Assembly (NCBI GenBank): GCA_002633005.1
Contig: NMRA01000156.1
Coordinates: forward strand, 62,001-126,000
Length of the DNA: 64,000 bases
DNA from: Phoronis australis
Taxonomy: Eukaryota; Animalia; Phoronida
Direction of reading: 5' to 3'
Part shown: piece by piece, positions 1 through 29,600 of the stretch
How the letters are laid out: each line of letters starts with the position of its first letter
Numbering within the stretch: position 1 is the stretch's first letter
The notes under the pieces: generated by a model
What the model saw: the letters and a program-made list of their open reading frames with translations, nothing else
Database searches by the model: none
Told to the model about the DNA's origin: nothing
Translations under genes and position numbers: made by a program

Positions 1-540
1 CAAAAATTGCTATCTCTTTAGTAATACACAAAACAAAAGTCAGAAGGTAGCACAAGCGTGTACCATTATGTTGCTATTTATTCCTCCATATTAAAACAGG
101 TGTTTAAAACAACAATGAAATCAACATGTCTTTAGAGAAGGCAATGAAAACAGTAAACATGAGCCATAGGTTTCTTTCATAGATCACGGACAATAGATTT
201 ACAGCTACTATCCTATGAAATTCCCAGAAGAGGCACCACTTTCTTCCAATGCCTAACTCAGCTTCAGTTTAGTAAGCAGACGACCTACTTGCCGGAAGCA
301 AAACATGCATCACACCATGCGTCACTACTGAATAGTGATGGTCACGGTCAATAGTGGTGGTCGCGGCCAATGGTGGTCGCAACTTGTGCATAAGAGTTGG
401 TGGTCCATATACTATAGTCTATCATGTTTTTATAGGCTTTAAAATAACATGTAAGTGAATGAATAAAACAAATCAAACAAGCTACACAAAAAACAGTGAA
501 TACCGGGGCCCAGACCCTCAACAATTCACTTATCAAGATT

Positions 541-2274: not shown

Positions 2275-2358
2275 GCCACAAGGTGTCTCTTCTCTCTTCG
2301 GATTTGTCTTGAAATAGCCACAAGGTGTCTCTTCTCCCGTCGGATTTGTCTTGAAATC
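2275..2358. repeat. 42-bp tandem duplication
   Basis: gccacaaggtgtctcttctc..tcggatttgtcttgaaat x2. Confidence 0.9.
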
Positions 2359-5132: not shown

Positions 5133-5288
5133 CACATCAAAATGCATTGTGAGGGGAGAGACCAGAAATCAAAACAGTTGGAGCTCAAAGGAAACAATCT
5201 TTCTATTTTCTGAATATAAAAAATTGATTCATTTGAGCTCTAACTGTTTTGATTTCTGGTCTCTCCCCTCACAATGCATTTTGACGTG
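5133..5288. repeat. Long inverted repeat (57-bp arms, 42-bp spacer)
   Basis: 5133-5189 versus the reverse complement of 5232-5288 differ at 2 positions. Confidence 0.92.
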
Positions 5289-8200
5289 AAATATTATTGT
5301 TTTTTTTTGTAAAAGATAAATAGCTCCCAAAAATAACCCTTCACAGTTATCAACTTCTGGACCACATAATGTAGCTACCAATAAGTGACAATTGAAAACC
5401 GTAGTAAAAGATTCAGAAAAAGGTAAAGGACAACACTGGCAATTATTTTTGTCAGAAATTGGCGAGGTTTCACAGCAATATATTATAGGGCACACGCACA
5501 CAGATTCACTTCAGAATAGCTCAGACTCAACGTATGAATACAGAAAAGAAAGTGAGCACATCAACATACTTTTGTGATACACTTTTTCAACATCGTTTAA
5601 TTTCATACGAAACTACAAAAAGATCAATCATTTTCATATTAAAGAATGAACCCACATACAAATAATTATGTGCGTGCATAAAAATAGCTAATTTTGCCCC
5701 GAAATGGCCATCACTTCATCTCGATAGTATTTTTTAAATTTATCTTTATACCAAGAAGTAGTCGTCCTTGAAATATATTTTATTCAACAACTCAGTATCT
5801 AGCCACTTTGCCGCATTTGAACAGCCAGAGTTGGGCGTCATGGCAGAATGACCCTTAAGACAAAAACTTTAAAGTACACATCACAACTGTGTGCAGTTTG
5901 CATAGTTCATAAACTAGATAAACAATGCCTCCCTCACCTCGTTATCAAGGCAGATTAGTTCGTTTGCACCTGAATACATTGAACAAGATATCAGCAGAAA
6001 CAAAGTACATGAGTTTTAATTAAAAGTTAAAGATAACGAAGGATCTTATTAACAAGAACATGTATGCTAGTGCAGTAAGTCTCCAGGTATTTCGCACATA
6101 AAATTATTTTGAAAAATAATATTTTGTCCCTTCCTTACTTCGCCCAGGCTACTTGGGTGGGTATTTCTTGCCCCCAACTAAGGTGAAAATTCTAAATTTG
6201 TTACGCAATATGGCAGACAGTTGAAATTTCATTTTGTCGAATTTCTCAACAAAAATAATCTTTTGAAAAAATTTACTTTGTTTTTATCTTGGTTTGTATG
6301 GTATAATTATTACCAAACAACATTTGGGACGATAGATTTTTCGTAACGGATGACCGGACCTTGTTCAGCAACTGGTCATGTCATAATTAATAACCAGATT
6401 TTAAGGGGCTTTAATGAAACCCTGCATTGCATAAACTTCAAACTACACTGACATATAACATTTTACTTGCTTTAGAAAATGCACTTCGGATGAAGATATG
6501 CACTATTTTTGAAAAACAGACACTTATTCACAATTTTCATTACTGTCTGTTGGCAGGTGGCATAAACTGGGAACAGAGAGCAATCAACACTTAAATAATG
6601 CCAGATATTGTATTTTATTGTAATAATCATACTTTATTAAAGTAAGCACTGACAATTTGGCATTCCACATATATAATAACAGTGAAATATCATAACATTG
6701 TTATTTCGAAAATCCATTCCGTACACGTCTTCTACCCTTATTAAAAAACCAATACAAATCCTGGGGACCAACACCAAGACCACAAAATAATGAAAAAACT
6801 CGGTTGAAATAAGCAATTTGTTGCAAAACTTAAGAATGGCGCAGACTCAATATCAGTCGGCTATGTCTGACCATATCCAGAAATTTCTATATGCGTTTGA
6901 TCGGCTTTGGCAACATTAAGCTTGAGCGCTTAAATTTTAGTCACGATAGAATTTATCATCAATCATCAGTACATCACAAGTTAGAACCATGACGTGCGAC
7001 AAAATAGTCTTTGCTTCTTATCTCGCAAAAATCTATTGGATCTCATAACGTTAATGGAAACAGGAAAGGGTCAGTGACCACACACTGAACAAAATCTTCC
7101 TAAACTTATGATAAAGCCTGCTATGTTCGAGTATTTGTTCACCCATAATTTCAGTTGGACCAATTAATTCACAATAACGCAGAATGATATAGACTCCTCA
7201 GTTTTACTGAATTTCGTTGGATTCATAATCGTAATTTGCCACTGCGCGCTGCCCTTAGTCAGGAAATCTGTTTGTTACATCACAACTCCCCTGTCTTGTT
7301 TGTGCAGCCATGGTAAGACTGGATCGTGTTAACATCATTTGCAGTAAAGTAGGTTAGAGTCAAGGCCTGCCACCAGGAGGCGACGTAACTTGAAGCAATT
7401 ATTGGTTGGTTGTTTAGACAGATAAGTAGAATGCATTATGCCAAAAATATTAGAAATTCATTACAAGCATGTTTAGTGCTGGCCAGCTGTCATCAAGCAA
7501 AATTTTTAGTCTATGAACAAAGCAGGCAGGCTTTGAATGCAATCGAATTTGAAGAATTACATGTTACAGTAAAACCAAAATCAGTCATGGCCATGGCAAC
7601 TGGATGAGAAAACCTACATAGCTTTAGGTGGTCTGGAATAATTCTCCACCTAGTATATGACAGACAAGTAAAATTTTATTCTATCAAACTTTAAACAAAA
7701 AGATTCGGAAAATCTAAATCCATTAATAGCTTAGTCTGCACTGTGTTGATGTCATAGAAAACATTTGGCAACTCTCCAACTACAGCAATGTCACCAGACA
7801 TTGCGAGATGGTAAACTGACAGCTTTGGCAATTACTTTTATGGGAAATAAGCAGAGAATTACCACATTATATACATTTAAAATGCCCTTAAAAATTACGC
7901 TGATACAATATCAGGTAAACAGATAAGCCCCTCAAATTGTGTAAGCAACACTTAACTTTGTATAGAACGCAGCACAGACAGCACAATTGTAAAAGCATAT
8001 ATCATTTGATGATGACGATTCAACAAATAACGTGAACAGTACTACGAAACGACCACCACTAATAATGATAACGGTGAAAATAGCACGTCTAACGATTGAG
8101 TAACAGTAACAGCAGTAGTTGCTGTTGTTTTACTAACCCTTATACACGCAACTGATACTACAAGTACTAATACTCACGAGACACGAAATTATTACTATCA

Positions 8201-8592
8201 CAGTATCAACAACTCTTAGAATTTACCATCAAAATATAAGTCTGTCCGTTCTCTTAAAGAAGACACTCAGACTTGAAAACTTCCTTCACGAAGAACCATA
8301 ACGGGGCTCTCGTGTTTTTAGCTCAGGTTTTTTGTGCAATGGGCCCAAGGTAAGAGGCCTGCACACGGCTGATGCACCACAAATGACATCAGGCTACTTG
8401 CACTGCTTTTTTTCAAAACATTGTCATATTTATTTTGAGGTTTTTTTTCCACACATACATGCAGGTTGATTGAAGCTCGCGTGAAGACACAGTAGGGCGA
8501 ACTTATAGGTCATGTATAATGTTAGTGTTTGAGAGAATGAAAGATAGCAAAGAAGATCCCAAGAATAACTATTAGTTGCACAGTGTACTTAC

Positions 8593-8657
8593 GTCATAAT
8601 GGACACCTTGTCTTGCTGTGATGCACCACGCATGCTGGCAGACATGGACAGATCCAT
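8593..8657 (-). CDS. RB1CC1: RB1CC1 coding exon 20 (start of Claw domain)
   Basis: MDLSMSASMRGASQQDKVSIM(T)|gtaagt; corresponds to recalled human MSQSMSSVSSRHSEKIAIRD. Confidence 0.85.
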
Positions 8658-11600
8658 CTATTGGCAGGAAAAGTAAACTCAAGTCAACAATTTACAGAAA
8701 TCATCACCAGTTTGTATTGAACTCATCTTTTACTTGCAGCATTCTATTGAAGTTTGGGCAGTAGTCACCTACAGGGGTTACACGTTTTGAGAACCAATTT
8801 GATGCTTGTTAATCAGCATAGAAAACTGGTTTCCATAATGTGGCACCACTCTACGTGGCTGTTACCAATTTTCGATCAATTTGGAGTGTTTTCCGATGCA
8901 TGAATTGAGGTGATATTAATATCACTGTACGTGATATTAATATCACTGTACGTGATACAGAAACGAAAATGATTGTAAGTAAAGCAGCACTTCAGAATTT
9001 GTTAATTTTGTTCCGCAGAAAAGATGCAGTTATCGCGCAGAACACACCAAATAACACATTTACGTCCATAAGGTAACACTGAAGAAATTCATCAAAAACG
9101 CAGGGAAACACATATAAGTGATTATTGACATTGTTGTGAAACACCATAATGAATAAAGAGTTGTAATTAATGAGAAATAATACAATTTATGATTGACATT
9201 TGAAGTCAGTATTTATGTGGCATACAGCATGGACAGTGCGACACGTGCGTTGTCATGGTGATGAACAGTTCTAGCAGAGGCTGATACAAGCAAGAAGTAC
9301 ATTGTAATGCAGTGTGAAGACAGTCCTCATTAGCACTTGAATGTACGCTACGTGTGATTGGCTGGATTCTGACGATCAAATTGTGGGAAGTGATCTACTC
9401 GACACGCTGCACTTTTTGTTCCAGAGTTGAGAAAATTAACGCTAGTATTGATTTGCATAATAAACGTACGTTATCGGACTAAATGATGCGAAATCCCCCA
9501 TCACGACAGTTGGATGCAAGTGGAATCCATTGCCATGAGAGAAATTTACCAGAAAGTTAAAATGGTGGAAATCCTATTGTATAATAAAAGAAGCATGAAG
9601 TGATGAATTATTGCCATTCGTTTTAGCTGTAAGAGGAATTCGGCAGTCACCAAGGGTTAGCAGTTATGTAATATCAGATTATTTTTGCTGCTGATATTAG
9701 TGTTTCCTACAAGTAATGAGGTCAGTCAGGACAGCCAATGACATTCATTCACTGAAAGCAATATGGCTGCCAGCCGGACGGTTCTCCGTTTGAACACTGG
9801 ATGGAGTGACTAGTCGCATGAGCCAGTTGTTTACTGTCTGGCTTTGTGCACTATTGTTCTATGTTCAATGGTTGCCTGGCTATATCATCTGTAGTTCTCT
9901 ATCTTATTTGAGCATGACTTTGCATAAATGAGTGTTTGGATAGCACTTCAAAGGGATGAAAGTGTGATGTCACACATAACAATGAATCCTAAATCTTGGT
10001 TATAAAAACATGCCAAACCCCTTTTGTGACTGCAAAGTTCTCTAGTTTACGCAAGTTTAGTGTTATTCTCATATTGCCAGATTCATGTATCGTTGTCGCT
10101 GATAGGCCAACATTAAAAAGGCATTTGTGGAGTTCTTTCAGATGATAAAATTATTCATCTATAAACCTGCTTTGATCGTGCACATTTATTTAACACTTCT
10201 AAATCAAATCAACACTGTCACAGTCATGTTGTCAAGTTATTGTTTGTAACAAAAATGGCCGACCTATGACCAAGATGGCCGACCTTTTGTTCAGGGTGAC
10301 GTACCATTTTGGCTCTAAGTTCCACCACCTCACTCTCTTTCTCTCGAAGAGTCTACAAAAAGTGAAAAAATAAGGGACTTAGTTACACCTATTTCCAGGT
10401 AAAAACACTTCAATTGGATATTAAAACGTAAAACAATTACCGCTTTTATTCCATTTGTCAAAGCGTAGTACATCGCTGCATATTTTTGAAATTTTTCGAT
10501 TGCTGTTGTGTGCAAACTGAACTAAAAGCAAAGTAAAATTTCTTGAAAGTTATTTCTGTTGAGAATTTTCACAACATAAAATTTCATTTGCCTGCCATAT
10601 TATGCAGAAAGACAAAGCACTCAGCTTAGTCAGGCTTCATATCTGTTATTACACCTAAGGTAAAATTCTTCAGTCTAGGACTGATCACCAATGGCAGAAA
10701 AGAAGAATTCTCTTTCATTTTGTCAATTTTTTGACAAAATTAACTGTTGAGAACATTTTACTTATTTGCCAGGGTGCCTTGTGATTTACAACTATCGTCA
10801 AACAGCGTTTGGTCCACCATTGAGCCTTTGCAGCAACTAAGCAAGCCTCTGACAAAATGGAAAAAGAAGGTAATTCTACCAATTACTTTTTGTCCTAAAC
10901 AGGAAAATTTGTACACAGTAAATCAGTTTACCATTAGAAAAGGAAAATCAGATTGTACATAATTATAAGCTAAAGCATAACACTATAATGAAACAACCAT
11001 TACACGAAGCTGGTGTCAGCCATAATCGGTTTCAAGTTGCAAACCCCGTCTTGTATAAAAATGATTTTGGACACTTACGGTAATAAAACTGGAACAAACT
11101 GGTTCCATGCAAAGACCTAAAGCGATTCCTGGGTCTGGAAAGAACTGACTGCTACAGACCAGGCTAAAAAGTTGGTCCGTTTCATGAAAAGTGACTTAAA
11201 GGCTCAAGTCAGGAATTAGGTCTTATGCTTCACACAATTATTTCCCAATAAATCTCAGCTGAGTATAACATAACTACTACTTACTGAGTTAAGTTTCTAT
11301 AACTTATTTCTCGACTGGGATAATAATTACTTGGCTAAACCTTTATACTTCTGGTATTGTGACGTGGTAGCATAAGAACAAACTTAATTTTAAGTCTTAA
11401 GTCATTTTTCATGACACAGGCCCCTGAAATACCTTTTAATCTGAATATTATGCAATCAAAAAAGTTGAGATCATTTTTAAAACACCATCGGGCCAAAATC
11501 AAAGGTCAGTTTTTGACAGCAGCTTCAATGTTTCTAAAACTGCTGTCCAAAAATAATTTTCAAAGTCCCTTATCATACCAAGGACAGGGTTAATTTTCAA

Positions 11601-14600
11601 AATAAAAATTTGACACATCAGATTGGTACCTGTAATTCACTTAGGCATCAGAATTTTCCAGTTTTAAGGGGTTTGTAATGAGAAGAGCGGTATCACCAGT
11701 TAGTGCCCGACAGTCATCTTTCAAAACAAATGACAATTTTCTCCTTCAAATTTAAACTAAATGATTATCTTCAACATACCTGTTTCAATTCATTAACTCT
11801 CTGATCAGTAGTTACACTGAAAAACAAAATCAAAATAATTAATCTCACCATTCACCTTGCAACTAAATAACCATGAAGAAATTTACTTTATTCACAGACA
11901 GAAAAATTATTTCTTATCTAGGACGGCATGGGTGAGCACTGTTCTCCTACGAAATGTATTCACCTGTTCACAAGTCCATGTCCATCCTAAAGGGGATTTG
12001 TACGTACAGCCTTGAAAATAAGTACACTGAACTAGTGACATACATCTAAATTGCCGTGACACCCTCCCCCCATTCAAATTTCGCTGTATTTTTGGGGTAG
12101 TGCACCCAAGTCAAGTCACTCCACTGTGTTACACAAAAGAGGTTGGGACATCTCAGCAAAGAGACAGTAACTGCAGTGTGTTGTCGCTTTTCTTCTGTTC
12201 TAGTTATTAATAACCGAATTTTGCCATTCAAACAACGATACATTTATCGCAATTATTTTTAAACCGGTCAGCACGCCACCTGTGGCCACATCACGTGAAC
12301 TAATGAATATCAGCGTGAAAAGATTTCTGCCCCAACCGGAACTCGAACCCAGGACATTCTGCTAACCCTGCTGACCAGCCTTAAAAACAGTGGCAATATA
12401 CATTTCCATGTTGGTTTAAAAATTAATATATATTTATATAATAATGACAAATTTAGTTTTTAAAGCACACAGGGTGTAAAATGAACAAATGTTGCCACAA
12501 ACAGGCAGTGGTTATCACTGACGCCCAGCTCTGTACCCTATTCTCCAGACAAAAAAATGGTCATAAAAAGTCCAGGTGCTACCTACAATAATCCCAAGTA
12601 GAAGCATGAATTTCATAGTTGCCTTTGGAAAATGTAATGTTGGGTGTAATGCCTAATTTGATGAAGAATTGACAAATCTTTGAGCTCAAAATCGTTGAAT
12701 TGTTTTTCAAACTCGGTGCATGTAAGCCAAACTCATCATGGAAAAATCCAAACTTGTTGCAACGACGAGTTAAGTTAGGTTGCGGAAAAGACTAATTAGC
12801 TTTCTCAAACGCTGCACTTTTGTTACGTTCAGTAAATACTGTCAAGGACCTCCAACCAATCAAACTTTCCAAAAACAAAAACTCATTCGTGGCTCTTTAC
12901 AGAATGACAAAACTACAAAACTTATTTGGAGTTATGATCATATGCAATTCACATGCACAGCAATCAACTTAAAATTGTTTCCACAGCCTCCGATTTGGAT
13001 TTACACCCACCAGGGACCACATGTGATGTAATACATGTTTTTATATTACAGTTATGAATAAACATTTTAAACTCCCTCCCTCCCTCCCCCTTCCCTCCTT
13101 CCCTCCCCCAAACTTAGCCTTAAGGCGTAACTATTGTTTTCAAGACAAACCTAGAAAGTTCAAACGAAGCCACGAGTCTTTCTCGCTCAAGCGCTTCGAC
13201 CTTTGCCTGAGCTTCATCTAATTTTTTCCTCAGCTCGTCTCGTTGTAACCTTCAGAAAAAGAACCAACAGTAGGTTCAACAAAGAACTAGACAAACCCTA
13301 TAAAGACATTCTACGTGTTAGCCAATAATGCTCAAAACAACAATTCAATTAGAACTTAGCATGAAAAGAGCAACTTATCAACTTGAAATTTCTTTCAAAA
13401 TACGATTACAGATCTAACTTTCGCATTAAAAATGATGTTAACAATTATTCCTGAAGTTGGGAAGAGCCAACTTGTTAGTTCTCAAGACCCGATTCAACAG
13501 GTTGGCTAGACAAGGGTTATTATACGCACCCAGCCTAGTCTCGAGCAATAACAAAATGTCCGATCTTCCCAATCCCAAAAATCACATCAAAACTGAGTTT
13601 ACTACGAAAATTTTGAGAACAATTTTATGACTGTTAGCAAGTGGTTCATATATAATTAAGTAAATCATGAACGGGCGTGGAAATATAAATCACAAACATT
13701 TTAAGTCCGGTCAGCCCGCCACCTAATGGCCACATCACATGACCTAATGTACATGAGTCCGAAAAGATTCCTGCCCCCGACCGGGACTCGAACCCAGGAC
13801 CGTCGGCTAACTGTGTGCAGATGCTCTAGCCACTGAGCTATCGGGACCACCAGACTTATGTTCAATGGGTCACGTGATGTGGCCAATAGGTGGCGTGCAG
13901 ACCAGTGAGTTGCAAAGTGGTCTAAATCGAAAGTTAGCTTTTATGACAGAAGGAGAGTTCATAACATCTTTAAATTGTTTAAAATCAAATACTTTTCATT
14001 TGCTGTAGGATGGAATGTTTCGGCGATAAAAACGAATAACTCTGGGAACGGAGAGCTACACAGGACCACACACAGAGTCACATCTACTGCACAGATTGGA
14101 CATATTTTTAACTACATGACAAGTGACCTTTGCATTGAACAATTACAAACTACAGGCGTTTTGCAAGTATTATTATTGTTCTTTCACCAGGTAGATGGCA
14201 GCACAAGTCAATGGTACTATGTGAAAATTGTGGACATAGAAGTCTCTTAGTCCAAGGGTACTTAAGTAAAGGACAACAATTACTTTACCTTTCTTCCAAC
14301 TCTTTTTCCTGAGATCTTGTCATGGCGTTCCCTATAATATCAACATCTGGTCATATTTAAGTTAAAAAACACCACTTAGAAGGTACAGCTGGTCCACACT
14401 CACAAGTGTGTTTCTTCCTTGAGAGCATTTTGTGTAGCTAACTCTGATATTTCATAAATAATCCGTCTGGGATGAACATCCGCAGATAGTACAACTGCAT
14501 GTACGATACTGTCAGAGAGTGGAATGCCCTTTGATACAGTTTTAAGATTTTGTCTGAACAAATTGCTTTGATAAATACCGAGAAAACTCCAGGAGTATAC

Positions 14601-17600
14601 TGTTGAGTTTTGACATGGAAACTATTTCACATCAATCGCATATCAAGACTTCACACACTGCAAACATCAGTAACATTGAGAGTTGCTCTTTAGTTTCAAC
14701 ATCTATCTTGTTCAAATTATGGTTCCCATTATTGAAAAGATGGCTTCTTCGTACCTCGTTCTTTCTCTAGATCCTGCAGCATGGCCGTTTCCTTAAGTTT
14801 GAAATTTTCAATAACTTTATTTTTGTTTTTCACAATGTTATCCACAGCAGCATTGAAGGCAACCTAAAATGTAAATCAGACAAATAAGAAGAGGAAAACA
14901 ATACAGAAAAAAGCAATGTTTCATCAGCCACTGCCCGTTTTTCAAGTTTAAGAGACACCTGGTGGTGTGAGTCAGTCTTGAGGTGAACCGTCCCATTGTG
15001 TGGTAGGTATTGTTGAAGGTTCACCACCGTATCTCTCAAGACTGACACACACCGCAGTGTCACAGAAGTTAGAAACAGCCGCTGACTGGCCGAGAAAATG
15101 GTTCAATATTTCCATCGAAATAACCAGAAGTGACAGAAATAGGCACACACAGAACTCAGCCTGTTTGCGGATTTTAGTATTGTTGAAAGCAAAAACATCC
15201 TTATAATTTAGAAATAAAAAATAATTCATCCATATTGCATCTCAAATGGGGAACAAACCTGGTGCAAATCTTTATTTCTAATGAAAATTAATTGCAGAAG
15301 CTAAAATGGCATTAATTTCAATGCATATTCCAACATTGAAAGGCACACAGACAATGTTTGTTATTTATTGTCATAGGGAATAAATTCAAAATGTGTCTGT
15401 CATAGCGAAAATCGTCAACTAAGTTTGAAACCACGATTACAATGATGACACCACAGGAAAAGATTCCATTATGTCTAACGGAGTGTGCCTGCGCATTGCG
15501 AGCGTAAATTTAAAATGAATTTGCTGCGAAATTGAATTAGAACAATGCACGTCGTGACAATCGAGTGAACACATATGTGAGCATGTATGTGAGTACCAGA
15601 GTCGCAAACTGTTTATGAAAACAAATGAAGCAAAATGGTCAGCGACGTTCAATTGTCGCTGCATTACTACCCGAGAGGTTAACTTGGGCAAGCTGCAGGG
15701 GAACGTGGATCTTAGATGTTTCAGCACACCTGTGTAAGGTGTTGTGTATACAAGTGACTCTTCACCATTAGTAGAAGTGAAATTGTATGAAAACTCTTTA
15801 GCTTAGGTCACAATACGGAAAACTAGTGAAATTTTGTTTTTTTATTTTATCATGAAAACATGAAAAGAATCCTACGTTGAAAACGTAACCGGTCGTGATT
15901 GGGCAATTCGACCGGTTTGCATACCTCAGGATCTGCCGGTGTTGATCAAAGACATTATGCTGTTATAGTTAATAACATCCCCTCAGGCTGCTGATGTTAT
16001 CCTTCTATAGATAATCAGACCCATCATACACACGCTGGGGGCTACAACAGTATTTTCAAATTTTCGTTTTGGAAGTTTGTAAATAGCATAGTTTGTGAAA
16101 TATACACGTGATTAGAGTTTTGAATTTTGAAAATTGGTCAAGAAATGTGACTTTTACAACCTAAAATGCTTGTTTAATGTCATAAAAAGTTCCTCATTAA
16201 TTCTGCTGGGTGTGCAACATAATTGGGCCAATTACCAAACCACCAGGCAGCAGTTGGATTTTGAGGTAAGCCAGGTGTCATCACACCATTCACTGTAGGC
16301 AGCAGCATACAACATTTGGAAGAGTTGTGAGCACTCACAGTAAATACCATATGTTGAAAAATACAAAACAGGTGCAACTTTGGACATTATCGTGGTCTGA
16401 AATTGGCGAGATTTTTTTCCATGCGTGTGGCTGGAGCTCGAGACATCCATCCATTTGTAGCAAGCCTAACCATTATGATTGTCACATTATGAATTCTAAA
16501 CGAGTTTGCCTGTGTTTGCCTGAACTGTGTGTGATTGCCATCAGACCCAGTGAGATTGTATGTTAGTCATTCACACATGGGAAGACTCGGGAACATCATT
16601 GGTCAATATAATGTTTCTACGCCAAGTCATATCCACCAATAACATGCCTGCTGCTCCGCAGTGATGCTGGACCGGAGTGATGATAGGCTTGCCTCTTTTT
16701 CTTTCTGTAACCTAGCAACCAAACGATCCGTCTCTTGTTTGTGTTGGTCAGTCAGACTCTGTCTCACCTGAGGGGTTAAAGGTAACAAATTGAGTACCCA
16801 CTTCAAAGTCAAAGTGAGCATTCTTGAACATGGTATAAAAATAATTGCTAAAATATCTCTTTTTCAAAGTCTACTACACTGCTACAAATGTTCAAAATTT
16901 TACGAAATGTTATTAGGTGACAGCTACGCTATACAAATCATGCTAAAAAAAGAATGAAATTTACATTAGCGTTATTTTTGTTCAGAATTTGACCAATTAC
17001 AGGACTTGATGATTAGCCTAATGTCAACATGGCAAATGCGACCTGGCACAATTCGCAGGTCACCAAACAGGAAATAAAGTCGGCAAAACAAAGAAACCGC
17101 GCATAAGTCCTGGTCCCTACAGACAATGCATAGTTGAGAACAGTTAAAAATGAAAAAAAGGTTTGTCTGAATTTAAAACTTGCGAACTCAGAAAATGTCT
17201 GCCGGAACACCCGAAATTGCCTGGTCACAAGGATAACCGGGGATCATTAGGAATATATTGCAACTCCAACCCCCTCCCCCCCGGCCCGAATACCTCCTAC
17301 CTAAGGGGGAACCAGACGATGAGGACACGCATCCTGCGTATGACCTATCAATGAGCTCTTACCGTTTTTGCTAAACAATTCCAACTCCCGTTCGTTTAAT
17401 TTATGTAGTATTGTGAGCGTGTGCTCGGATGTGTATATTGCGACTTTGGATTTTACCAAGACGCCAAACATAACCTGAGGACACATTGGCGACCTGCAGG
17501 TTGTCACATTGAGCCCCGAACTTATGTTCTACTCGTCCACCACATAACACCCTATAGTGAAGAATTTTTACCATTCATCCAATTTGTTCTTCTCAACAAA

Positions 17601-20600
17601 ATTAAAAACTGTAGAGGTCATCGACAGTGCATCCAATCTAAAAATATTGAGCAATAACTCTAACCCTCGAGGTTAATGTCCCTATTCGGTTTGGTGCTCA
17701 CCAGTGAAAGTTCCAAATTTACCCTGTAAATGCCCAAGCTTGGCTCATTGCGCACCCTCAATTTATACAATTAAAAGTTCCTTGAATTTTATTGTTAGTC
17801 TCCTTCGCAAGCTTACAGAGCAGACAATCTACCTACGCCACTCCTTGGTATGAGTGCTCCGCGATGCGCTCGCATGTAAGTTTTCACAATCCGTAAAAAG
17901 ATTACGGGATTCTTCAGCGTTTTTTAAACAATTTTTGGGATAATTATGCCAAAAGACAAAACAGTCAACAATGAAAAATAGACGGACAGAAATCGTTTCA
18001 TGTTCATCACCTAGGGCTGTCTTGACCATTAAAGTTTGACAATGAATCAAGCTGAAGTCCCTTTTGTGCTCTCGCTAGACAAAAGAGTTCCATTTCACTG
18101 AGTTTGCCAACCATCCAGTCCCAATGGAAGAATCCTCAACCACAGTCACAACCAATTCGACTGCGACTGTGTGAGTTAAATGTGATTCTAAACTGGAGGA
18201 GTATCTTTTAATTATCGGAGGGTATTTTTAGGCCTGATGGAGGAATTCGCCTGATTCTTAAATATTTTTCAAAGGAGAATGTAACTGATATTCGGTACCA
18301 AAATTGAGGCATCGAGAGCCCTGGAGAATGACGAGCTGAATGTAAAGCGGAAGTGATTCCAGGAGACGTATTAAATGACTATCAAAAATGATTTAAAATT
18401 ACAATAAAACTGAACAGGTCATTTTACAAAATGTGTAATTTCTCATTTACGAAACTCTAATTTTTCACTAATTTAGCATACGTTACGATATGGCTGACAG
18501 GTGAAATTCTAATTTTGTTAAATTCCTTCACAAAAATAACAATCAAGAAAATTTGAGCCTATTACCATGCATGGTTTGTGCTGCATAGATATTATAAAGC
18601 AACATTTTGCAAAGTTTCCATTATTTGCAATTTTGACAATTATTTTTGTGTGAAACAAGTGGAGAATTAATTATTGAAAACTCACATGCTCAACAGCTTT
18701 TTCTAATCTTTCTTCATGAGCTATGTTGATCTCGGCAATGATTTGGCCATGCTTTTCAAGAGCGATGAAGTCGTTCAAATCCACGTGAAACTCCCCACTG
18801 ATCACTTCTAGACTACCTCCGCATGGACGAGTGCCGTCAGTGGATTTCACCGCAGATAACTGGTCTCTGCCATCTTGTGGCTCCGACCGAGTTTGTGTTC
18901 CACTCGACGTCACACCGACTGTCTCCTGATACATCAAACTTGTTTGAGCAGAAGCGGACAACACAGTTATATCACACGTTTGAATATTTTTCTCATAAGT
19001 TGTAACATCCGTATCTTCGAGAGTTTCAAAGGATGGCATGCTCGTCTGAACTTCTAAAGAAAGAAGTTCAACGTCCTCAGTTTGAGTTTCTCCTTCAGAC
19101 GTTATCAATTCATTTTTGCTGTCACTGGAAGCCGAACAGGGACTTGTCTGCATATAGCTTGACATAGTGTCAGTCTTTAGCGTTTGAGTTTGATCTTCTG
19201 CTACAGGTATGACAGGAGTTTGAGACACACCTGACGAAACGCTGACACTGACTGTCTGCATGGACGCACTATCTGTATGTACGCCGACTGTTTGTAATCC
19301 CACATGGTCCCAAGCAACAGGGTTTGTTTGTGTTTCAACAGAAGCCTGCAAACGTCTGCTATTCGCTCTTTCTTCCACTAACTTCAGCTCATAACATCTG
19401 ATCGCCTCATCAATTGCCTTTTCTTTTTCCGCTTCGCATTTCTGTTGCATCTCTGTCAAAGCAGAGCGATGAGCTAGTTCCAAGTCATTTTTGACATCCT
19501 CCACATGTCTAGCATGCTTTTCCAACAATTCATGCTCCTTAATCACGTAACTATCATACGTTTCTTGTCGAAGCTGCTCCATATTCTCAGCATGCTCTTT
19601 GAGGAGTTGCGCACGTAATTCCATTGACTGTGTGTCACACTGCCCTCGCAGTTTAACTTCTAAATTCTCCATGTCACATTTGTGATCATCAGACATGCCT
19701 TTTTTCTCAGCAGCGTGGTTTGACAGGCACAGTTCCAATTCCTGTGATTTCGCCGCCAGCTGAGACCTCAGGCTATCCTGCTCTAGGCCTCTGGTCTCTA
19801 AATCTTGCGCAAAATCCATCTTAATTTTCTCTAGTTCTAACTCCTGTTCTAGTGTAAGCTTTGTTATGGCATCAGTGTGTTCTGCAGTCAATGTTGCCTT
19901 AAGTTCATCTAGCTTGGTTTCTGACTCCTCCTGGATCAACTTCAACCTAGCGTTAGTTGCTTCAAGTTGTTCATGATAAACGCCAACCTCTTTTTGAGAA
20001 TCCTTCAATTTAGCCGTAGCCACGTTCAACTTGTCCCCTAAATTTGACACCGTGCTCTCATGTTGCCGTTTAAGCTCTGTCATCTCACAATCAAAATTAC
20101 ACACTTGTTGATCCGTCACTCTCTTGATTACATCCGTAAGTCGTCCGGCAACGGTTGCAATAGTTTCCATCATATCATCGCGTTCTTTTTGAAACAGCTT
20201 CTCAACACTACGGATCTCGTGCCTCAGTTTTAAAGAGTCCTTTCCTACGACATCACCTAACATCTTAAAGCGTCCATTAACATTCTCAAGACTTTTCTGG
20301 ATTGTTGCCAGTTCCCTTTCCTTTCGTTCTAACAGTGACGACCTCTCTTGGAGCTGTCGCTGCAGTTCGGCCATCTTCTCTGCCATCTGTTTGTGCCCAT
20401 CCGAGTATGAGGACGGAAGGGACTCCTCGATGTAAAAATCTGCCGTGGTGAAGTCATTAGACTCAATCGCCACTAGCGAATCACTACGATCTCTCTCGTC
20501 AAGTGAAACCACAGGCCGTTCAGCGACCGAATAAAATCTTTGGCAATCCAGCTCGTCCTCATCCTCGTGTTCAGGAGACGCCAGCACTTCTATACTCCCC

Positions 20601-23600
20601 TCTTGTGTATCAGAAACGTAGTCAAGACTCTGCTGAAGAGTCTCGTCCATGAGGTGCACAACATTCACTTCCTTGGGCAAAGGAGATTGGCTGCGTGTCG
20701 ATTTACGGCTTTCTTCCTCTTTAGTTGCAGTTAACATATCCGCTGGACTGGGAATGATGCTAGCACCAATGTCAGTATCACTAGGCTCATACCTGTATAG
20801 CATACAAATAAGATGTTGTAAAAAGAATACTATACCCGGATTTGGCCTGTTAGCACACATTGTAAACCAATTCCCTGACACAAAATAATCTTCTTAACCC
20901 ACAAAAGTTTGGAGTAAAATTTGAAAACTCCTTTCGAACTTTGCTAGACGGGCAAGCGTGACCTATGCTATTAGTGAATTACATGGCAACTGTGGTGAAA
21001 AACCACCTACCAATAACGATGATATCCAATCTGTGAAATAGGAAGTAATAATTTTCAGTTGAATCCGGCTTTTATCTTACAAGATTGGCGCCAATGATGC
21101 ATTAGCAGGTGACAAAACAAGGATTGGTTGAAATCATAAAAACATGGTTTAGCCTCCTTCTTATGTATTACTCCTTAATAATATTTCAAAATTACCAAAA
21201 TATTGTCAAAACTGACAGATTTCGCAGAAATAAAAAGATGGAATTGTCGAGGGTTTCAGTTTAAGAAATTAAAGTGCTAAAAATGACAAATTATTAAGGT
21301 TTGCCACCTTTCACATAATTCAAAGACTATTCTAAGAATGTTGACACAAAAATGAAGAAAAGTTAATGAACTGTGTACAGATGAATAAACAAAGACAAAG
21401 AAAATGAATATCAGAAGACAGTTGACTGTAAGATGGTTAGCCAAAATATTATTGCCAAATTGACGTCTCAGCGAGAGGGTTTTTATCAATTTTTGGAAAA
21501 GCATTCCTTGATACTCTGACTGTTTCTCTTCATTCAAATTGCTGGGTGATTCCAATTCTTTTCAAAAATGTATGACACTACACATCTAAATTTTAGAAAA
21601 TTACTCCATCTACAAAGCCTATGGCTACAATCCTGCAAATGACGGAGTGTAATATTAGTTCAAAACAAAGGCAACAACTACAAACTGTATAACTGCTAGA
21701 GCTAACCACAGTGGCCCTGTCACTCCAAACACACTATCAGACTGTCCTAGCCATATTAACCTCTTGATGAAGAACACGGATGTCTGGAAGCAGGCAATTA
21801 TGGCCAAAAACACGCCTCGATTATGACACGGTCCATGTCCATGGGATTCAGACTGTACCACATTTAGTCCCGAGGACTTGCTCGTGTGACGGTCCAAAAC
21901 AAAATTCTCCAGTTTGGGACGCATTAAAAAATAATTATTTTGCTCAGGGTCGGAGCTTGTACCAAATTTTAGAAAAAGGCAAACTAGCAGTCCAAATTCA
22001 AGAATTACAATCAACTAGAGACGATCATTCATCTTGATGTTACACACTATGGGGACTCATGAAGACGTTGCGTCAGTGGCTATTTTTGACCATTTTGTCG
22101 ACTGTTAACTAGTCTATTTTCGGACTCTGTTTATACAAAAAGCGGAGTGTCTGATATTCGAGAAATATCAAGAATGCCAAAATCACCCACGTCTTAATTT
22201 TCCGAATCAAGAAAATTCCATTTTGCTATGAATTTTGGTGTCACAAAGTTTAGAGGTTGAATCAAATTCTACATAGGCATCCTACATTGAAAAAATAACA
22301 CTTTACTGAGTAAATTCTACAGTTTTTTAAGTAATTTAATCTAAATGCACAGACCTGTCATTGAGACCCCACATAACTCTGAAAACTGACAGGTTTACAT
22401 TTAAGCATGTGCATGCAAACAATGCTACTATGAACACTGACGGGTAGGTTTACATTTAAGCATGTGCATGCAAACAATGCTGCACAAATCTTTCGTAAGC
22501 ACCAACCCATGAGGACAGCCGACTTACCGAAGAACATGAGCCAGCTCTGGCGTCTGCTCCTGAAGGAAGATCATGTCTGACTCCATGATAGGTGGCAGCA
22601 TCTGATCATATTGTTGGGGGGGCTCTGTCTAAAATGACAACAGCATCAGTCCACAAATGTCCTCCTTGTAGAACAAATGAGCAACAGGTGCTTACAGGTA
22701 TACAAATCACTTGCAGGAATTTTATTTATTTTATTGTTTATTTCACTCCCTTGCACATTTTTGGACACCAAAACATGAACAAAAATATTTACCCAACACT
22801 GAACTTCAACGTTATGAAATAATAATACAATGTACATTATTGCTGTTTATAACCACGGAGATGCTTCCATAAGAAACAAATACCTCGCTTCAAATCAAGA
22901 AGTTTGAAAATTTCACTCTTTTCTGAAAAGTTTCTTCATTCGAATTTAAAGAGAACGTCATAACATAAAATATTTGTTCACAGAATCATTCCGCATTACA
23001 CACGTCAGCGTCGCACGTCCATACTTACTGCATATGCAGGAGGCAAGTCGTTGAGACCAGTGAAGAGGCTGAGGAGAAAATGGCGACCTACAATAAACAT
23101 AACAGACACTAAGAAGATTGGGCACAGAAGCTGACTGGGTCAGACCAGTTGAAAAATGTAATATCCAGAGCGTAACATAGCTCCATCGGGGGAAAGCTAC
23201 TTGGAGCACAGTTCAAATTTCATTGCAAAGGGTGCAAGTTTCAGTGTGTCAATTGTGTCAATTGGGGACACAAAATTTATTGAAGACTTTCCGATTCTGG
23301 TAACAAGGAAAAATGGGCTTTTACACCAGGCACCGACTATATTTCCTCACCAAGCTTATGTCGATCTTCAAATTATACTTGAGGGTCACACATTTTCCAG
23401 TTCAGTGAGGACTTAAGATGCATGACTTTCACAATCAAATTTAAACTCTCAGTGCAAGCGTTCATTATTACCTATCTGGTCCATGAACTGTTTCCTGCGA
23501 GCGACTTCCAACTCATGCACAGAACTAGCCTTGCCTGCCAAATGCTCTGCCCACTGAAAGCAGTAATGTTCATGCTTATTTGAACAGTTAGCTACCGCAC

Positions 23601-26600
23601 ACCTTGGATCAAATGCCAAGCAAAGGGATGTGGCCTAGATGGCTACGGACTTCTGCAACCTCTCTCGAGGAGAGCCTACTGGCTATTTATACAGAAGAGG
23701 GTTCTCATGAGTTTCAAATGGTATTTGTGCAATGGTGGTCTATGTGGTCTCCAGACATTCAATGCAATTCAGACACCAGGCCACCTGCAATCACTATAAA
23801 TACCTTGCGACACCATATGCAGTGAAAATACTCTAAAACATTTTCAGCAGAAAGACACAAAAATAGAATGATACAGATACTAAATAATAAATAAAAGTAT
23901 TGTAGGTATGGCTGAAGGTTACTTTTTATTTAAATCTGGTCGAGCAACACCCATGTTTTAACTACATCCAAACAAAACAATGGCCTCTCATAACGTTTCA
24001 AAATTAAACCTCCACAAACAACACAGACACTGGAAATGCCTACAGCTAAGTCAGGTTACCTTATAAACTGTACTGTGCCCGGCACTTGACAAAATAAAAT
24101 GGAAAACCAAGAACCCAACTTCGGTCAAAAATAACATTTGATTTCGATCATTTACTGTAGCAAAATAGGCCTCACTACATTCCATATTAAGATTAGAGGT
24201 GATTTCTCAGCTCGGGTGGAGTCGACAGCTCACTGTTGTTGAAGACCAGGCTAAAAAGGATGCCTCGTCACGGCAGGTTATTTCATGTGCCGAGCATAGT
24301 TTGGAACTGTCAAATTTTCAAAGCCCAGAAATCAACTCTCATCTGAGTAACAAACAAATTGAGCCCGGTCTAAAACAAAAGTGATGTCTGTCCGTTCATA
24401 GCATTAGTATTGCCATCACACACTTTGATAAGTCAGTTATTACATCTTCTCAAAGACAATGCTGACTTATTTTCAATCCTGGTTGTCGTCCAATGTCAAC
24501 ACTTTCATGGAAGGTGGGTTTAAAGGACCTTTTCAAGAATCAATGACAACTGTCGTGAAGTCTCGTATGATGAAAAGTGCATCCCAGCAATCGGTTCTTA
24601 CAATACCAAACGTCATTAATGAAGTGAGGCCAACTGTTACCTCCGAGTACTGCCGACTGAACTGTTTCCTGCGCAGCACCTCGACGACGGCCATGGCGTA
24701 CAGCTTGGGCGCGTTGTACATCTGCTGTAAGATTTCCAGCCGGCGCTTTAGACGGCGAACGTTGTCCTGATGAAGTGTCAGCTTGTCGCCGCAGTCACAG
24801 ATTGATTTCTCAACGTACATCACCCACCTGAAGTAGACGGACTATGATGAGCAGATCTTTAAGTAAATGAGAGCAGGCGGGGGGAGACAATTTGAGTCAG
24901 AATCCATTTTGCTGAATTAATGTCTCAAATAAGCAATGTAGGATAATAATTTAAGGCTATATTGAGTACTACATCGTTGGGTCAAAAGTTCAAGGCAAGA
25001 CAAAACAAGAAAAAGCAGTCTATTTGACCATAGTATACCCATAAAAAACAGAATTCTTAACTTGCCATATTTCACGACTCAATTTGTTTGTCAAACATTG
25101 TAAAATTATATCAAAACAATCTTGAGTCACTTTCATGAAACAGACCCCCAGTGAAGCGACGCCTGGTGTTCTAAAGAGGAACCTTTGAGAGCAGTCACGT
25201 ACACTCATTTACCTGAGTCGTGTGTGTAGATTGATGCTAAGTTCCTCCTTGGCCTTGCTACACTTGCGCTGGATGTCTCTCAGCTGCTGGTGCTTGGTCA
25301 ACATTAGGATCATCTGAGTCTTGTGACTGGCACACAGGTCAGGAAGAATCGACGGGTCGCGCAAGTTACCGGCACGGTTCTGGTTCTGCACGAACCCCTG
25401 TGGGTTGAACAACGAAGGAAAAAAAAAACGAGGGTGACAGATTACAGATCCCGCTTTGCACAATCCCCTCCCAATTAAGCACACAAGAAGGCATGATGGT
25501 CTAATGTGGAAGCTCAAAACTCATTAGGTGGCACCAGTGTAACAAATATGCTATTTGCAAAAATGCATGCATACATTAGATGCCCTTACAAGTATACAGC
25601 TTTCCATTCTCAGTAGCGCCACCTAGTGAACATCGAGTCTCCCATTGGTAGGTAATAGCGGTAGCTAGCTTGTATTTTAGCCAGGCTTTGATTGGCTGTA
25701 ACTTCGGTACAGTAATGAAGAATGTGCTCTGAACTCGGGTGCATTCCGTAGACGGAGGAATCTTGCAACAACAAAGATCCTGCGCAGCATGCCATGTGTA
25801 ACCATAGAATCATGTAATCACACCTATCTACCTTTACTTGCAAAATTCTTTCATATACGCAACGAATGCCTGACTTAAACCAAACTCAGAACATCCTAGT
25901 CTGTCTTAAAACTTTAATAAGTGGATAGCGGACAGATAGAAATCGCGAACTTTGACCAAGAGCATGCCTCTGAATGCGACATTGTTCACGAGACTCTTAT
26001 CCACGTTGTAAAACACGATTATTTCCCCACTCTCTTTTTATCCCGTTTTCCACATGTTACCAAGAGCAAGGTTGGTATGACAGGGTTCTAAGAACTAAAA
26101 AAGCAGCTCAAATGCAAACTTCGATCAAGTGCCCGAAAACGGTGTTTCTCCGATTTCAATCAAGTCCCCCGTTCGACCGTGCTCCTACCTGAGCCATGTC
26201 AGCTTGCTCCTGCACAATTTTCCGAGCGCCAAACATGATTTGCTCCAGGCTGCACAATCTATCCTCAAGTCCTTTCACTTCCTTCATACTCGTGTTGTTG
26301 ACATCAGCCAGAACTTGCGCGACGTCTGCCATCAGCGCATCGCACACTCTCTTATCAAACTGGTGGCAAAATTAGGCAAAGTTGGAAATGAGTTCAAACT
26401 AGCAATTGCACATCTTATAACTTTTATACAGAAATTAAGTGATTTACCTCAAAGGAAAAACATAAAGATTAAAAAGTTAAAAATTTATGTACAGTATACT
26501 TAAATATATCAGATCCAACCGAACTGAGAGATTTCATCTGAATAAGACAAAATCTGACTTTCTGAAGAGGCGAGTTCACAGACTAGAACTACTGTACCAT

Positions 26601-29600
26601 GGGATTTTGTCAGAGTTAAGGGAAAATCTTACCTACAGTAAAATTCATAAGTTTGGGGCACAATGTGGCAAATGAGAGTTTCCTTTTTTTTCAAAATTTC
26701 AAGGAAAGTGAGTATGAGAAAATTTTACTTTGTTGTCAGTATGATTCGTGTAGTTCAGCTGTCCCAAGACAATAAGCTTTTACAACAAAGTACTTACTAA
26801 GCCTTTAAAAAGTAGAAATTTCTAATTTTAGCAATTATTTTTGTCCCAAATTGATGACACCACCTGATGGCATGATGTCACTACATAAACCCAACAAGTA
26901 CTTTTTAATAAAGGCTCTAACAAAAGCTGGGCTCTTATGGAAGGCAGGGCAGAAACAACAAGAACTTAAAGGCTTCTATCACCTGTTCCACTTCCTTAGC
27001 CGCCTGTTCAGCCATCTGCTGCAGACTCCCCTTGGAATCTTGTAGACTGATCCACTCTAGTAAGGTCAAAGGTCGCTGGCTCTGGGTCATCGACTGGATG
27101 CCGTGTATAGACTGTTTTGGGCTGATGTTTTTTAGTAGACATGGTAAAAGAGGCGTCTTGCCGAGAAGCACAATGGCCTCGTTAAAACTGAAATATCACG
27201 TGACATATGCGACAGAATATGCGTGGATAAGACACCATAAGAACAGAGCATAAAGTACTATGGTTTATACAGCAAGGTAAGCGTTGAGCAAATTTTTAAC
27301 AATTCTAAAAAAAATTAAATTAACTGAACAGTTTTGCATGCATCTCCAACAGACTATATGAATATAATATTACATTCAACTGCTGAATTTTAAAATTATC
27401 AGAGATGGGACACTTAGAAGTTACCGATTACACTATGCAATTTACAATTAGTTGTATAACAAAGTATTAGGAAACAGCTTCATGCAACATAGCCAGCTAC
27501 GATATACACATCAAAGTAGCTATAATTTGCTAAATTCCTTTACACTACAGACACTGATGTCTGTTCAACATGAATACAGTAACTGACAAACAAAATTGTC
27601 GCCGTTGAGAAAAATTTCACATTTATCCAAGTGTACTTACTGTACTAATCCACACTACTTAAAAAATTCAAAATTCGCCTCCAATTAATACAATATTACA
27701 ACACATGAATAAGCAAAGGCAATAGCATGATAATACAGAGGAGCTCCCTTAATGTCATACCTGATAATAGAATATCCGGTTATTGCCATCGAATGTCAAA
27801 AAACAAATGATTTCCCATTATACACACGTAAAAAACCCGCATTATGTCATGACCTATTGCCATATTCCTGGATATTGTCATTAAANGTCGGATCCGTCCG
27901 AAAGTTCGCACATGCCGTCCCATTCATGAATGGAACATATGTGCCAAATTTCATGAACGTATGTCAAAGGGTTTTGGAGATAGAGCAGCGGACGCCGGAC
28001 GCCAGACGCCGGACGCCGCCCGGACGGACGGACGGATGGACGGACGGACGGAGATGACGGCATAATGCGTCCACATATAAATATGTGGGCGCATAAAAAT
28101 CAGAAAAAAAATTATTCTCAATAAGTTTACTAGCACGTGTACCTTCGCTTTTGTGTCTAAAAACTAAGTGTAAACCTAATTCATCTTAAAAATCATTTAC
28201 TTCATCAGATCTCAGCGCAGGCAGTAAAAATCAGTCATTTCCTGTTTACCTGTCTTACACTGTGACTCTCCACAGCAAGTTTAGCTTATAAGAAGAGTGG
28301 TTATGATCACAGCCAAGACAAAAACCACTTAATAGAATATCCTGCTTATTATCATAATTTATGTCGCCTCCGAGGGTGTGACATTAAGAGGGTTTCATTG
28401 CACTATTATAATTGTAAATATCTCCATCAACAGAGTATTGCTGCTTACTTGCGCAGAATCTCTCTGTAGCCATCACGTGCTGCAAAGTAGTCTTCGTAGC
28501 TGGTCCTGAACTGTTGCGTGCGGGCACGGAACGCGGCTGTGATGTCATCCAGGTTAGCGATGACCGCTGCCCAGCCCTGGTGCTGCAGGTGTTGATCGTG
28601 AACGAGCCGCTCACACGAGCGCACGTCTTCGCGTGCCATGTCGTGGAATTGCTGAAAATAACAGAAAAGGCATGTGAAATGAGAAAATATTTGGATAAAA
28701 AATAGTTTACACGAGTTTAAGATGCTATAAACGTGTGTTTTGTCAAAAAAGACACAACTAAATGAAATTGTTAAAATCTCGTCAAATGGCTCTTATTCCG
28801 GAAGTTTCTGAAATATTTAAATGTAGGTGGTTTTTCGCTAATGTCCTACACAACTGTTTTTCTCATGTAGATGGGCATTACAGTTATTTATTTCCAAAAC
28901 ATTTACAATTAAATAAATAATTAACCCTGTCAGGTGTATCATCCAAGCATTGTTGCTAACTGGATTATTACTACACTATTACTATTATTAACGTTTGTAT
29001 TATTGTTATTTATTGCCTGTAGTTTTAAAGAGACAAGTTGAGACTAAAGCGGTCAGAGTCAACAGTCAGGAAGGAAGTTGAGTTTAAAGCTGTTCTTTAT
29101 CTCATATCTAACATACTACACAAAAAATCTTAAAGAAAGGACACATTGCTACTATCTTCAAAACAAAATAACACATACTTAGAACTTTTGCCTTCAAATA
29201 ACAGGAGACAATTTTTGAAACATATTCTTATCACAAGGAACTGTAGAATTCAATACGTGTTCATATCTGTTCATTGGTGCAGAGAAAAAGTATGCAACTG
29301 ACTTATTTCTTGGTGTTTGAGGGTACTCGTACTCCCACAGCGGGATATACATGCTGTAAAAGGGGTTAATTCATTGCGCGAAAAAATTTAACAGAGATTT
29401 ATTCGAGTATGGGTTTTGCAAAAACCTTGCACACGAGACAAAAAACTTCTGAACATAAACAATATCTTGAAAACCTGAATTCAATAACAGCTTTCAATTT
29501 GGTCGTTCCGAACGCAAAAAATCGACTGTTCATGTTACTTACCAAAGCCAACTGGGCCCTGGCGACGACAGTCTCGTAACTGGACGGCATGTTTAACGAC

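What the first reader, a model, noticed from the sequence alone, without database searches (positions are those of the whole stretch)
18882..19345. FIP200/RB1CC1 carries an array of 11 QT motifs with 12-residue spacing: a candidate multivalent LC8 (DYNLL)-binding tract inside the coiled coil
Seen: the giant exon encodes SVETQT, HVGLQT, SASMQT, SGVSQT, EDQTQT, SSYMQT, EGETQT, SLEVQT, EKNIQT, SASAQT and SSGTQT. The QT-to-QT spacings are 12,12,12,12,12,22,12,22,12,17 residues. The intervening residues and DNA have diverged, so the register appears to be kept at protein level. The tract interrupts E/K/L heptads on both sides. Established: the LC8/DYNLL hub binds TQT-anchored beta-strand motifs, and tandem arrays next to coiled coils occur in ASCIZ and yeast Nup159, where LC8 dimers zip two chains into a rod; AMBRA1 links LC8 to autophagy. 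I do not recall such an array in human FIP200. Inference: in this lineage the ULK1-complex scaffold may be stiffened, lengthened or regulated by stacked LC8 dimers.
Basis: partly seen in the sequence, partly recalled or inferred. Interest (0 to 1): 0.9.

Follow-up and report, generated by a model that had tools for sequence, protein, structure and literature searches.

The report
LC8 docking ladder inside FIP200
The autophagy scaffold FIP200 of this marine invertebrate, and of most oysters, mussels, scallops and clams examined, has its long rod interrupted by an evenly spaced row of short QT motifs that likely dock many copies of the hub protein LC8, which would make the scaffold's length and stiffness adjustable; binding is untested.

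Summary
Exon 13 of a true RB1CC1/FIP200 gene encodes 11 QT motifs at the stated spacings. The pattern is far beyond chance, is kept at protein level rather than as a DNA repeat, is spliced into mRNA, and lies in a predicted disordered break between two helices.

New here: the same array, at the same place and with the same 12-residue period, is in 17 of 18 autobranch-bivalve FIP200 proteins. Gastropods, cephalopods and Lingula carry a QT at that hinge but no array. The window's protein groups with Lingula, not bivalves, so the array probably expanded twice from one motif.

The motifs fit published LC8 rules at -1 and -4. The window's own look individually weak (4 of 11 TQT; 2 of 11 with P/D/E at +2); bivalve ones fit better. 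The site maps between the membrane-binding and NDP52-binding parts of human FIP200.

Best reading: a multivalent LC8 ladder like KANK1 or Nup159 that zips the dimer across the break. My paper searches found no FIP200-LC8 report. The scan has noted LC8-type arrays in five other proteins, none in FIP200.

The parts
8593..32524 (-). RB1CC1/FIP200 gene, 20 exons in the window, 1394 residues; the Claw-domain exons were not found in the window and probably lie beyond its start
   Evidence: tblastn with orthologs; GT/GC-AG model with open frame; 15 RNA joints shown; no Claw exon past 8593 by profile search
18686..20792 (-). exon 13 (2107 bases): disordered region, first coiled-coil segment, QT tract and start of the next helix
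   Evidence: RNA joints 16762>18681(+5) and 20792>22531, depth 8-14 in X1 and X2
19376..20374 (-). long predicted helix upstream of the tract (first coiled-coil segment); the membrane-binding region of human FIP200 lies in the matching part by position (inferred)
   Evidence: AlphaFold2 helix 140-472; PMC7447430 passages
18761..19375 (-). predicted disordered break of about 205 residues in the coiled coil
   Evidence: no secondary structure, pLDDT mostly under 50
18890..19345 (-). array of 11 QT motifs (12 QT counting QTQT), 7 pairs exactly 12 residues apart; candidate LC8 sites
18695..18760 (-). conserved helix that resumes the coiled coil after the break; a single QT precedes the matching helix in gastropods, cephalopods and Lingula
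   Evidence: helix 678-699; ortholog stretches
16648..16767 (-). exon 14, ending in the AEQQ anchor that matches human residues 1326-1329 in the NDP52-binding coiled-coil construct (PDB 7EAA, human 1286-1395)
   Evidence: window to P0156 alignment, P0156 to 7EAA E 2e-6, numbering checked against L1367 in PMC8363153; a direct search with this exon alone found nothing

Best explanation
The tract is likely a multivalent docking ladder for the dimeric hub protein LC8 (DYNLL), placed in a predicted disordered break of the FIP200 coiled coil. Human FIP200 is a parallel dimer (from papers; assumed here), so the two chains would present the motifs side by side. Each LC8 dimer would take one motif from each chain as a beta strand, and the 12-residue period (8-residue motif plus about 4 linker residues) would let neighbouring dimers pack. 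Weak single sites would bind cooperatively because the flanking coiled coils already hold the chains together. Filled, the tract would change from a coil of about 8-10 nm into a segment of about 40 nm (my estimate from the KANK1 paper's figures), with hinges at the 22- and 17-residue gaps. It would set the reach between the membrane-binding coil and the cargo-receptor end. Shown: the array, its transcription, its period and its conservation. Predicted: disorder. Inferred: LC8 binding, rod formation, function and two separate expansions from one ancestral motif.
For: Array beyond chance and held at protein level. Included in mRNA. Disordered between helices in both the window and Pecten models. 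8-15 QT within 200 residues in 17 of 18 proteins of the autobranch clade, at most 4 in the 31 other rows. Among 153 motifs of 13 named bivalves, pair distances peak at 12 (81), 24 (55) and 36 (39), against 6 at 11 and 3 at 13. QT columns conserved over linkers. Fit to the rules of PMC6607443, with residue sets of my choosing: position -1 in 11 of 11 window, 134 of 153 bivalve and 144 of 326 background QT; -4 in 11 of 11, 143 of 153 and 209 of 326; +2 P/D/E in 93 of 153 bivalve against 52 of 326. A QT 66-73 residues before a conserved anchor in 8 of 8 gastropod, cephalopod and Lingula proteins; 5 of their 7 distinct motifs have P/D/E at +2. The two LC8 sites of AMBRA1, Q1076 and Q1088, are also 12 apart. 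KANK1 forms a rod from weak sites with 3-4 residue linkers.
Against: No binding data and no complex model. The window's motifs are not enriched for P/D/E at +2 (2 of 11, p 0.55) and have a large residue at -3 in only 5 of 11, below background (234 of 326); none meets all seven rules. 61% of tract residues already fall in my -1 set. Many TQT peptides fail to bind alone, and the nonbinder EIF2S2 in that paper's Table 2 resembles the window's seventh motif. Nup159 and ASCIZ give substoichiometric, heterogeneous complexes, so an array need not be a stiff rod, and very short linkers can also be heterogeneous. Most animals sampled, and Dreissena among bivalves, lack the array, so it is dispensable. 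Bivalve proteins are related, so the p-values overstate independence, and QT-anchored alignments favour QT identity.
Confidence: 0.62

Rival explanations
1. LC8 binds the tract but fills it partly and reversibly, as in ASCIZ. The tract then acts as a brake or sensor rather than a strut: LC8 holds the coil closed or damps the NDP52-triggered loosening of the membrane-binding coil, and phosphorylation of the many S/T residues could release it, as ULK1 releases AMBRA1.
For: Uneven gaps (22, 22, 17) and mixed motif quality in the window. The site lies at the edge of the zone (human 800-1250) that NDP52 loosens and just before the NDP52-protected zone 1290-1320. AMBRA1 precedent. The tract is 32% S+T.
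Against: A strict 12 period over ten motifs in scallops and across bivalves suits packed dimers better than a loose sensor. The human SKICH-binding residues are not clearly matched in the window protein (my reading), and no NDP52-like partner was sought. LC8 is now regarded as a dimerization hub, not a dynein cargo adaptor, which weakens the microtubule-tether version.
Confidence: 0.22
2. The QT register serves another partner or modification (a phospho-threonine or glycosylation array, or an unknown beta-strand-binding dimer), or the tract is only a flexible spacer.
For: No binding evidence exists; window motifs miss the +2 and -3 preferences; length and number vary freely between species.
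Against: A plain spacer would not keep QT and a 12 period while linkers drift. ATM/ATR-type S/T-Q sites number only 5 in the tract and the kept element is Q-T, not S/T-Q. Bivalve motifs match LC8 rules at -1, -4 and +2.
Confidence: 0.13
3. The 12-residue units fold on their own into a beta-solenoid with a glutamine/threonine ladder.
For: Regular 12 period, up to ten perfect steps in scallops.
Against: AlphaFold2 with 18-row alignments gives no strands and pLDDT under 50 across the array in both the window and Pecten; spacing tolerates 11-17, 22 and 24. The alignments are shallow and single chains were folded, so this is not final.
Confidence: 0.03

Closest known systems
KANK1 linker L2 with LC8 (PMC12803091; parts 1-4 of 9 read)
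   Same: Long disordered stretch next to a coiled coil, many individually weak motifs, short even linkers, predicted to extend into a hinged rod.
   Different: KANK1 motifs are mostly non-QT and binding, stoichiometry and rods are measured. Here every anchor is QT, the tract has coiled coil on both sides, and nothing is measured.
Yeast Nup159 Dyn2-binding domain and Drosophila/human ASCIZ (as described in PMC12803091 part 4 and passages of PMC10046861)
   Same: Tandem QT-anchored motifs; Nup159 has 4-5 residue linkers and a structural role.
   Different: Both give heterogeneous or substoichiometric complexes; ASCIZ has uneven linkers and acts as a sensor. Neither is an autophagy scaffold.
AMBRA1 with DLC1/LC8 (PMC2953445; passages read)
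   Same: Autophagy-initiation protein with TQT motifs 12 residues apart (Q1076, Q1088).
   Different: Two motifs in a PI3K-complex regulator, against 8-15 inside the ULK1-complex scaffold.
Human RB1CC1/FIP200 (PMC7447430 passages and Discussion; PMC8363153 passages; PDB 7EAA)
   Same: Orthologous N-terminal domain and coiled coil; the AEQQ anchor matches human 1326-1329.
   Different: No LC8 tract is described in what I read; the human stretch at the hinge (about 1255 by inference) was not retrieved, so its sequence was not compared.

Membership tests
RB1CC1/FIP200 (Atg11/Atg17-type scaffold) | N-terminal ubiquitin-like and ATG17-like scaffold domain | tested here: met
   About 55-58% identity over about 520 residues to named RB1CC1 proteins; nests among them in two trees. 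Pfam on one window exon alone was weak (ATG17_like E 0.026).
RB1CC1/FIP200 (Atg11/Atg17-type scaffold) | long central coiled coil | tested here: met
   Helix of 333 residues and a further helix after the break; dimer state not tested.
RB1CC1/FIP200 (Atg11/Atg17-type scaffold) | C-terminal Claw (ATG11) domain | tested here: inconclusive
   Only the lead-in exon 8593-8657 is in the window; an X4 contig of 1059 bases holds that exon at record 169-233 and no listed piece places the rest. Array-bearing bivalve proteins have the domain.
Multivalent LC8 client (KANK1, Nup159, ASCIZ type) | Q anchor with T at +1 and a mid-sized polar or hydrophobic residue at -1 | tested here: met
   11 of 11 window and 134 of 153 bivalve motifs against 144 of 326 background; strict TQT in 4 of 11.
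Multivalent LC8 client (KANK1, Nup159, ASCIZ type) | favourable flanks: P/D/E at +2, large residue at -3, no bulky hydrophobe at -4, no internal proline | tested here: inconclusive
   Window: -4 and proline rules 11 of 11, but +2 only 2 of 11 and -3 only 5 of 11. Bivalves: +2 93 of 153, -3 at background. LC8Pred itself was not run.
Multivalent LC8 client (KANK1, Nup159, ASCIZ type) | motifs in an intrinsically disordered region | tested here: met
   Prediction only.
Multivalent LC8 client (KANK1, Nup159, ASCIZ type) | client is a parallel dimer or lies beside a dimerizing coiled coil | not tested
   Human FIP200 coil is a parallel dimer; assumed for this ortholog.
Multivalent LC8 client (KANK1, Nup159, ASCIZ type) | measured QT-dependent binding of several LC8 dimers | not testable with these tools
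   Needs ITC, SEC-MALS or EM.
ATM/ATR S/T-Q cluster domain | clustered SQ/TQ as the conserved element | tested here: not met
   5 S/T-Q in 157 residues; 7 of 12 QT are not preceded by S or T; bivalve -1 is T in 26 and S in 18 of 153.

The most novel reading that the evidence does not exclude
FIP200 of molluscs and brachiopods has an ancestral single LC8 site at the hinge between its membrane-binding coil and its cargo-receptor coil, and at least two lineages independently expanded it into an LC8-built strut of up to about 40-50 nm. LC8 would then be an unrecognised structural subunit of the ULK1 complex in these animals and would set, reversibly, how far from its cargo an autophagosome starts.
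Probability: 0.35. Interest if true: 0.8.

Novelty: new variant of a known kind. Interest (0 to 1): 0.62.

Why it matters
FIP200 is the tether that joins cargo receptors to the first autophagic membrane, and little is known about how its coiled coil is regulated. A natural series at one hinge (no QT, one, four, and 8-15) makes the role of tether length, register and stiffness directly testable, using farmed bivalves whose proteins are public. It also offers a natural case of repeated expansion from one motif to a ladder, with a 12-residue period found in separate lineages, which tests the linker-length rule for cooperative LC8 binding. The ladder mechanism itself is known; the host protein and the evolutionary series appear not to be described.

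Tried and rejected
No genome is held for this window, so the host's own LC8 gene, NDP52-like receptors and the Claw exons could not be sought. Complex prediction of LC8 with two motifs: tool not available, no verdict. A finer read lay on the array was not obtained, so inclusion rests. No RNA holder was listed by index; the three raw-read runs came by species label. Search with exon 13 against longer proteins gave only two tick RB1CC1; the representatives search gave 39 hits, best alignments mostly ending before the array. ESM Atlas on the tract: best score 0.77, uninformative; the lineage of unnamed P0156 stayed open. Pfam finds no family for the tract. A tree of the exon-13 coil did not place the window with support and dropped Lingula, Ptychodera and Amphiura for lack of an anchor. 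Window against bivalve arrays: z 0.1-4.3 over linker shuffles, like distant bivalve pairs (1.5-7.4), so the arrays' own sequences cannot tell common descent from convergence. Window as sister to or within gastropods plus bivalves was not rejected (p-AU 0.076; no cephalopods in that tree), so a basal mollusc remains possible. Recent DNA duplication rejected. S/T-Q cluster and beta-solenoid readings considered and disfavoured. Of 16 read variants in exon 13 shown, none hits a QT codon, but 69 variants were not shown, so I draw nothing from it.

Full report
Observation. In the 157-residue tract 12 of 14 glutamines are followed by threonine. None of 200,000 shuffles reached 12 QT and none of 500,000 random placements gave the 7 pairs lying exactly 12 apart; the tract was chosen after seeing it. 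The 36-base units are no more alike outside the QT codons than random in-frame pairs (0.29 against 0.27), the QT codons vary synonymously, and TRF finds no 36-base repeat. The register is therefore held at protein level.

Gene and expression. tblastn with named orthologs and canonical splice sites give 20 exons from 32524 to 8593 and one frame of 1394 residues. The Claw exons were not found in the window. About a fifth of each of three RNA runs was laid: X1 and X2 cover exon 13 at mean depth 8-14 on the gene's strand, with joints at both ends; X3 barely covers it. No internal joint is among the 15 of 18 joints shown, and sites inside the array have 11-18 reads in X1. AlphaFold2 on an 18-row alignment predicts a helix over residues 140-472 of the exon product, no structure over 473-677 and a helix over 678-699. 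The array (488-634) lies in that break.

Relatives. Two searches listed the best 120 of 1174 and of 976 hits, and a third gave 39; no named vertebrate protein was among them. In a 50-row tree, 17 of the 18 proteins of the autobranch-bivalve clade have 8-15 QT within 200 residues; Dreissena has 4, and the 31 other rows have at most 4. The bivalve arrays lie at the same place, ahead of the same conserved anchor. Among 153 motifs from 13 named bivalves, pair distances peak at 12, 24 and 36 (81, 55, 39). In an 18-row alignment 308 of 326 QT positions match Pecten, against 278 of 1459 linker positions; six pairwise alignments give 122 of 136 against 453 of 824. Both are biased by aligning on QT. 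A QT lies 66-73 residues before the anchor in 8 of 8 gastropod, cephalopod and Lingula proteins (Patella has two there), in 0 of 5 annelid and nemertean, 0 of 4 amphioxus and 0 of 6 echinoderm proteins, and at 50-80 residues in 1 of 50 arthropod or other proteins that had the anchor (64 of 114 did not). Solemya has four, 49, 49 and 71 apart, each followed by a copy of the next helix.

Origin. On the N-terminal 520 residues the window's protein joins Lingula (98/90 and 96/89 in two trees). Holding it with eight autobranch bivalves is rejected (p-AU 9.3e-6). Holding it with gastropods and bivalves together is not rejected (p-AU 0.076). It is thus a lophotrochozoan outside the autobranch bivalves, most likely a lophophorate. 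The array needs two changes on the tree. With single motifs in the intervening lineages, two expansions of one ancestral motif is the simplest reading, but this is inference: change counts cannot tell gain from loss, and the arrays' sequences do not decide.

Motif quality. I turned the positional rules of PMC6607443 (parts 2-3 of 8 and passages read; its 4 text supplements do not name RB1CC1) into residue sets and compared array motifs with 326 distinct background QT 8-mers from array-less orthologs. Position -1 fits in 11 of 11 window, 134 of 153 bivalve and 144 of 326 background motifs; -4 in 11 of 11, 143 of 153 and 209 of 326. Position +2 fits in bivalves (93 of 153 against 52 of 326) but not in the window (2 of 11), and -3 fits in only 5 of 11. 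The window's sites are probably weak alone. That paper lists binders resembling the window's first motif (OFD1) and bivalve motifs (SON, MAST1), and a nonbinder resembling the seventh (EIF2S2). KANK1 shows that weak sites with 3-4 residue linkers can bind cooperatively and form rods: 15 dimers span about 53 nm (PMC12803091, parts 1-4 of 9). The two LC8 sites of AMBRA1 are 12 residues apart (PMC2953445 passages). ASCIZ work shows that very short linkers can also give mixed complexes (PMC10046861 passages). The motif is 8-10 residues long (PMC12057147 passages).

Place in the scaffold. The window's AEQQ (1258-1261) aligns through P0156 to human 1326-1329 in PDB 7EAA, checked against L1367 (PMC8363153 passages). 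The single-motif position therefore falls near human 1255. In human FIP200, membranes protect 844-1073, NDP52 protects 1290-1320 and 1339-1392 and loosens 800-1250, and the parallel dimer has a modal reach near 75 nm (PMC7447430 passages and Discussion). The tract thus sits between the membrane-binding and receptor-binding parts, by an indirect mapping.

Mechanism. The likely working is that LC8 dimers thread both chains across the break. At about 3.5 nm per dimer, 11 dimers give about 40 nm, against 8-10 nm for the free coil by the worm-like-chain values in the KANK1 paper (my arithmetic). I give 0.62 to this strut, 0.22 to partial, regulatory LC8 binding, 0.13 to another partner or a plain spacer, and 0.03 to a self-folding solenoid, which two models do not support. 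No complex model could be obtained, and no binding is shown.

Novelty. Full-text searches for FIP200+LC8+dynein light chain (3 papers), LC8+TQT+RB1CC1 (0), FIP200+DYNLL1 (12), RB1CC1+DYNLL+interactome+autophagy initiation (3), FIP200 with bivalve terms (11) and LC8 with Atg17/Atg11/Dyn2 (2) showed no FIP200-LC8 report. I saw most of these only as listings, read passages of PMC2953445 and PMC8526019 (AMBRA1 only), and the library lacks most subscription papers; interactome supplements were not searched. The scan's notes hold five LC8-type arrays in other proteins and nothing on FIP200. The ladder is a known kind of assembly; its presence in the ULK1-complex scaffold, with a series from none to 15 motifs at one hinge, appears new. 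Verdict: real, conserved and testable; new variant of a known kind; interest 0.62.

Noticed in passing
P0064 (Solemya) residues about 1100-1290 and unnamed P0150: The unit of one QT plus the following helix is repeated four times (49, 49, 71 apart): a different way of multiplying the motif, with coiled segments between sites.
   Followed up: partly
P0050 (Dreissena) residues about 1000-1270: Only two motif-like QT remain; the rest of the region is a tandem coiled-coil-like repeat of about 32 residues, as if helix replaced the ladder.
   Followed up: no
P0156 near residue 1306; P0031 (Owenia) hinge: Non-canonical look-alikes at the same hinge (GIQS in unnamed P0156, ETAT in Owenia) may be degenerate LC8 sites.
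   Followed up: no
window 19296: All reads of X1 (11 of 11) and X2 (8 of 8) differ from the window here, changing the residue before the second QT from L to S.
   Followed up: partly
window 18630-18680: Intron stretch next to the exon-13 donor is covered 17-22 deep in X1-X3, also in X3 where the exon is nearly silent; probably a repeat read from other loci, but an alternative 3' end was not excluded.
   Followed up: no
window 18686-20792: Exon 13 is nearly uncovered in run X3 (depth 0-0.3 over most of it) while X1 and X2 give 8-14; the other exons are also low in X3.
   Followed up: no
window 1-8592: No Claw-domain exon found in 8.6 kb after the last exon, so the next intron is long or the assembly lacks the exons.
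   Followed up: partly
window 39787-41730 and 44661-45572, minus strand: Neighbouring C2H2 zinc-finger frame (Pfam zf-C2H2) and an upstream 304-residue frame with no Pfam match, possibly exons of one gene.
   Followed up: partly
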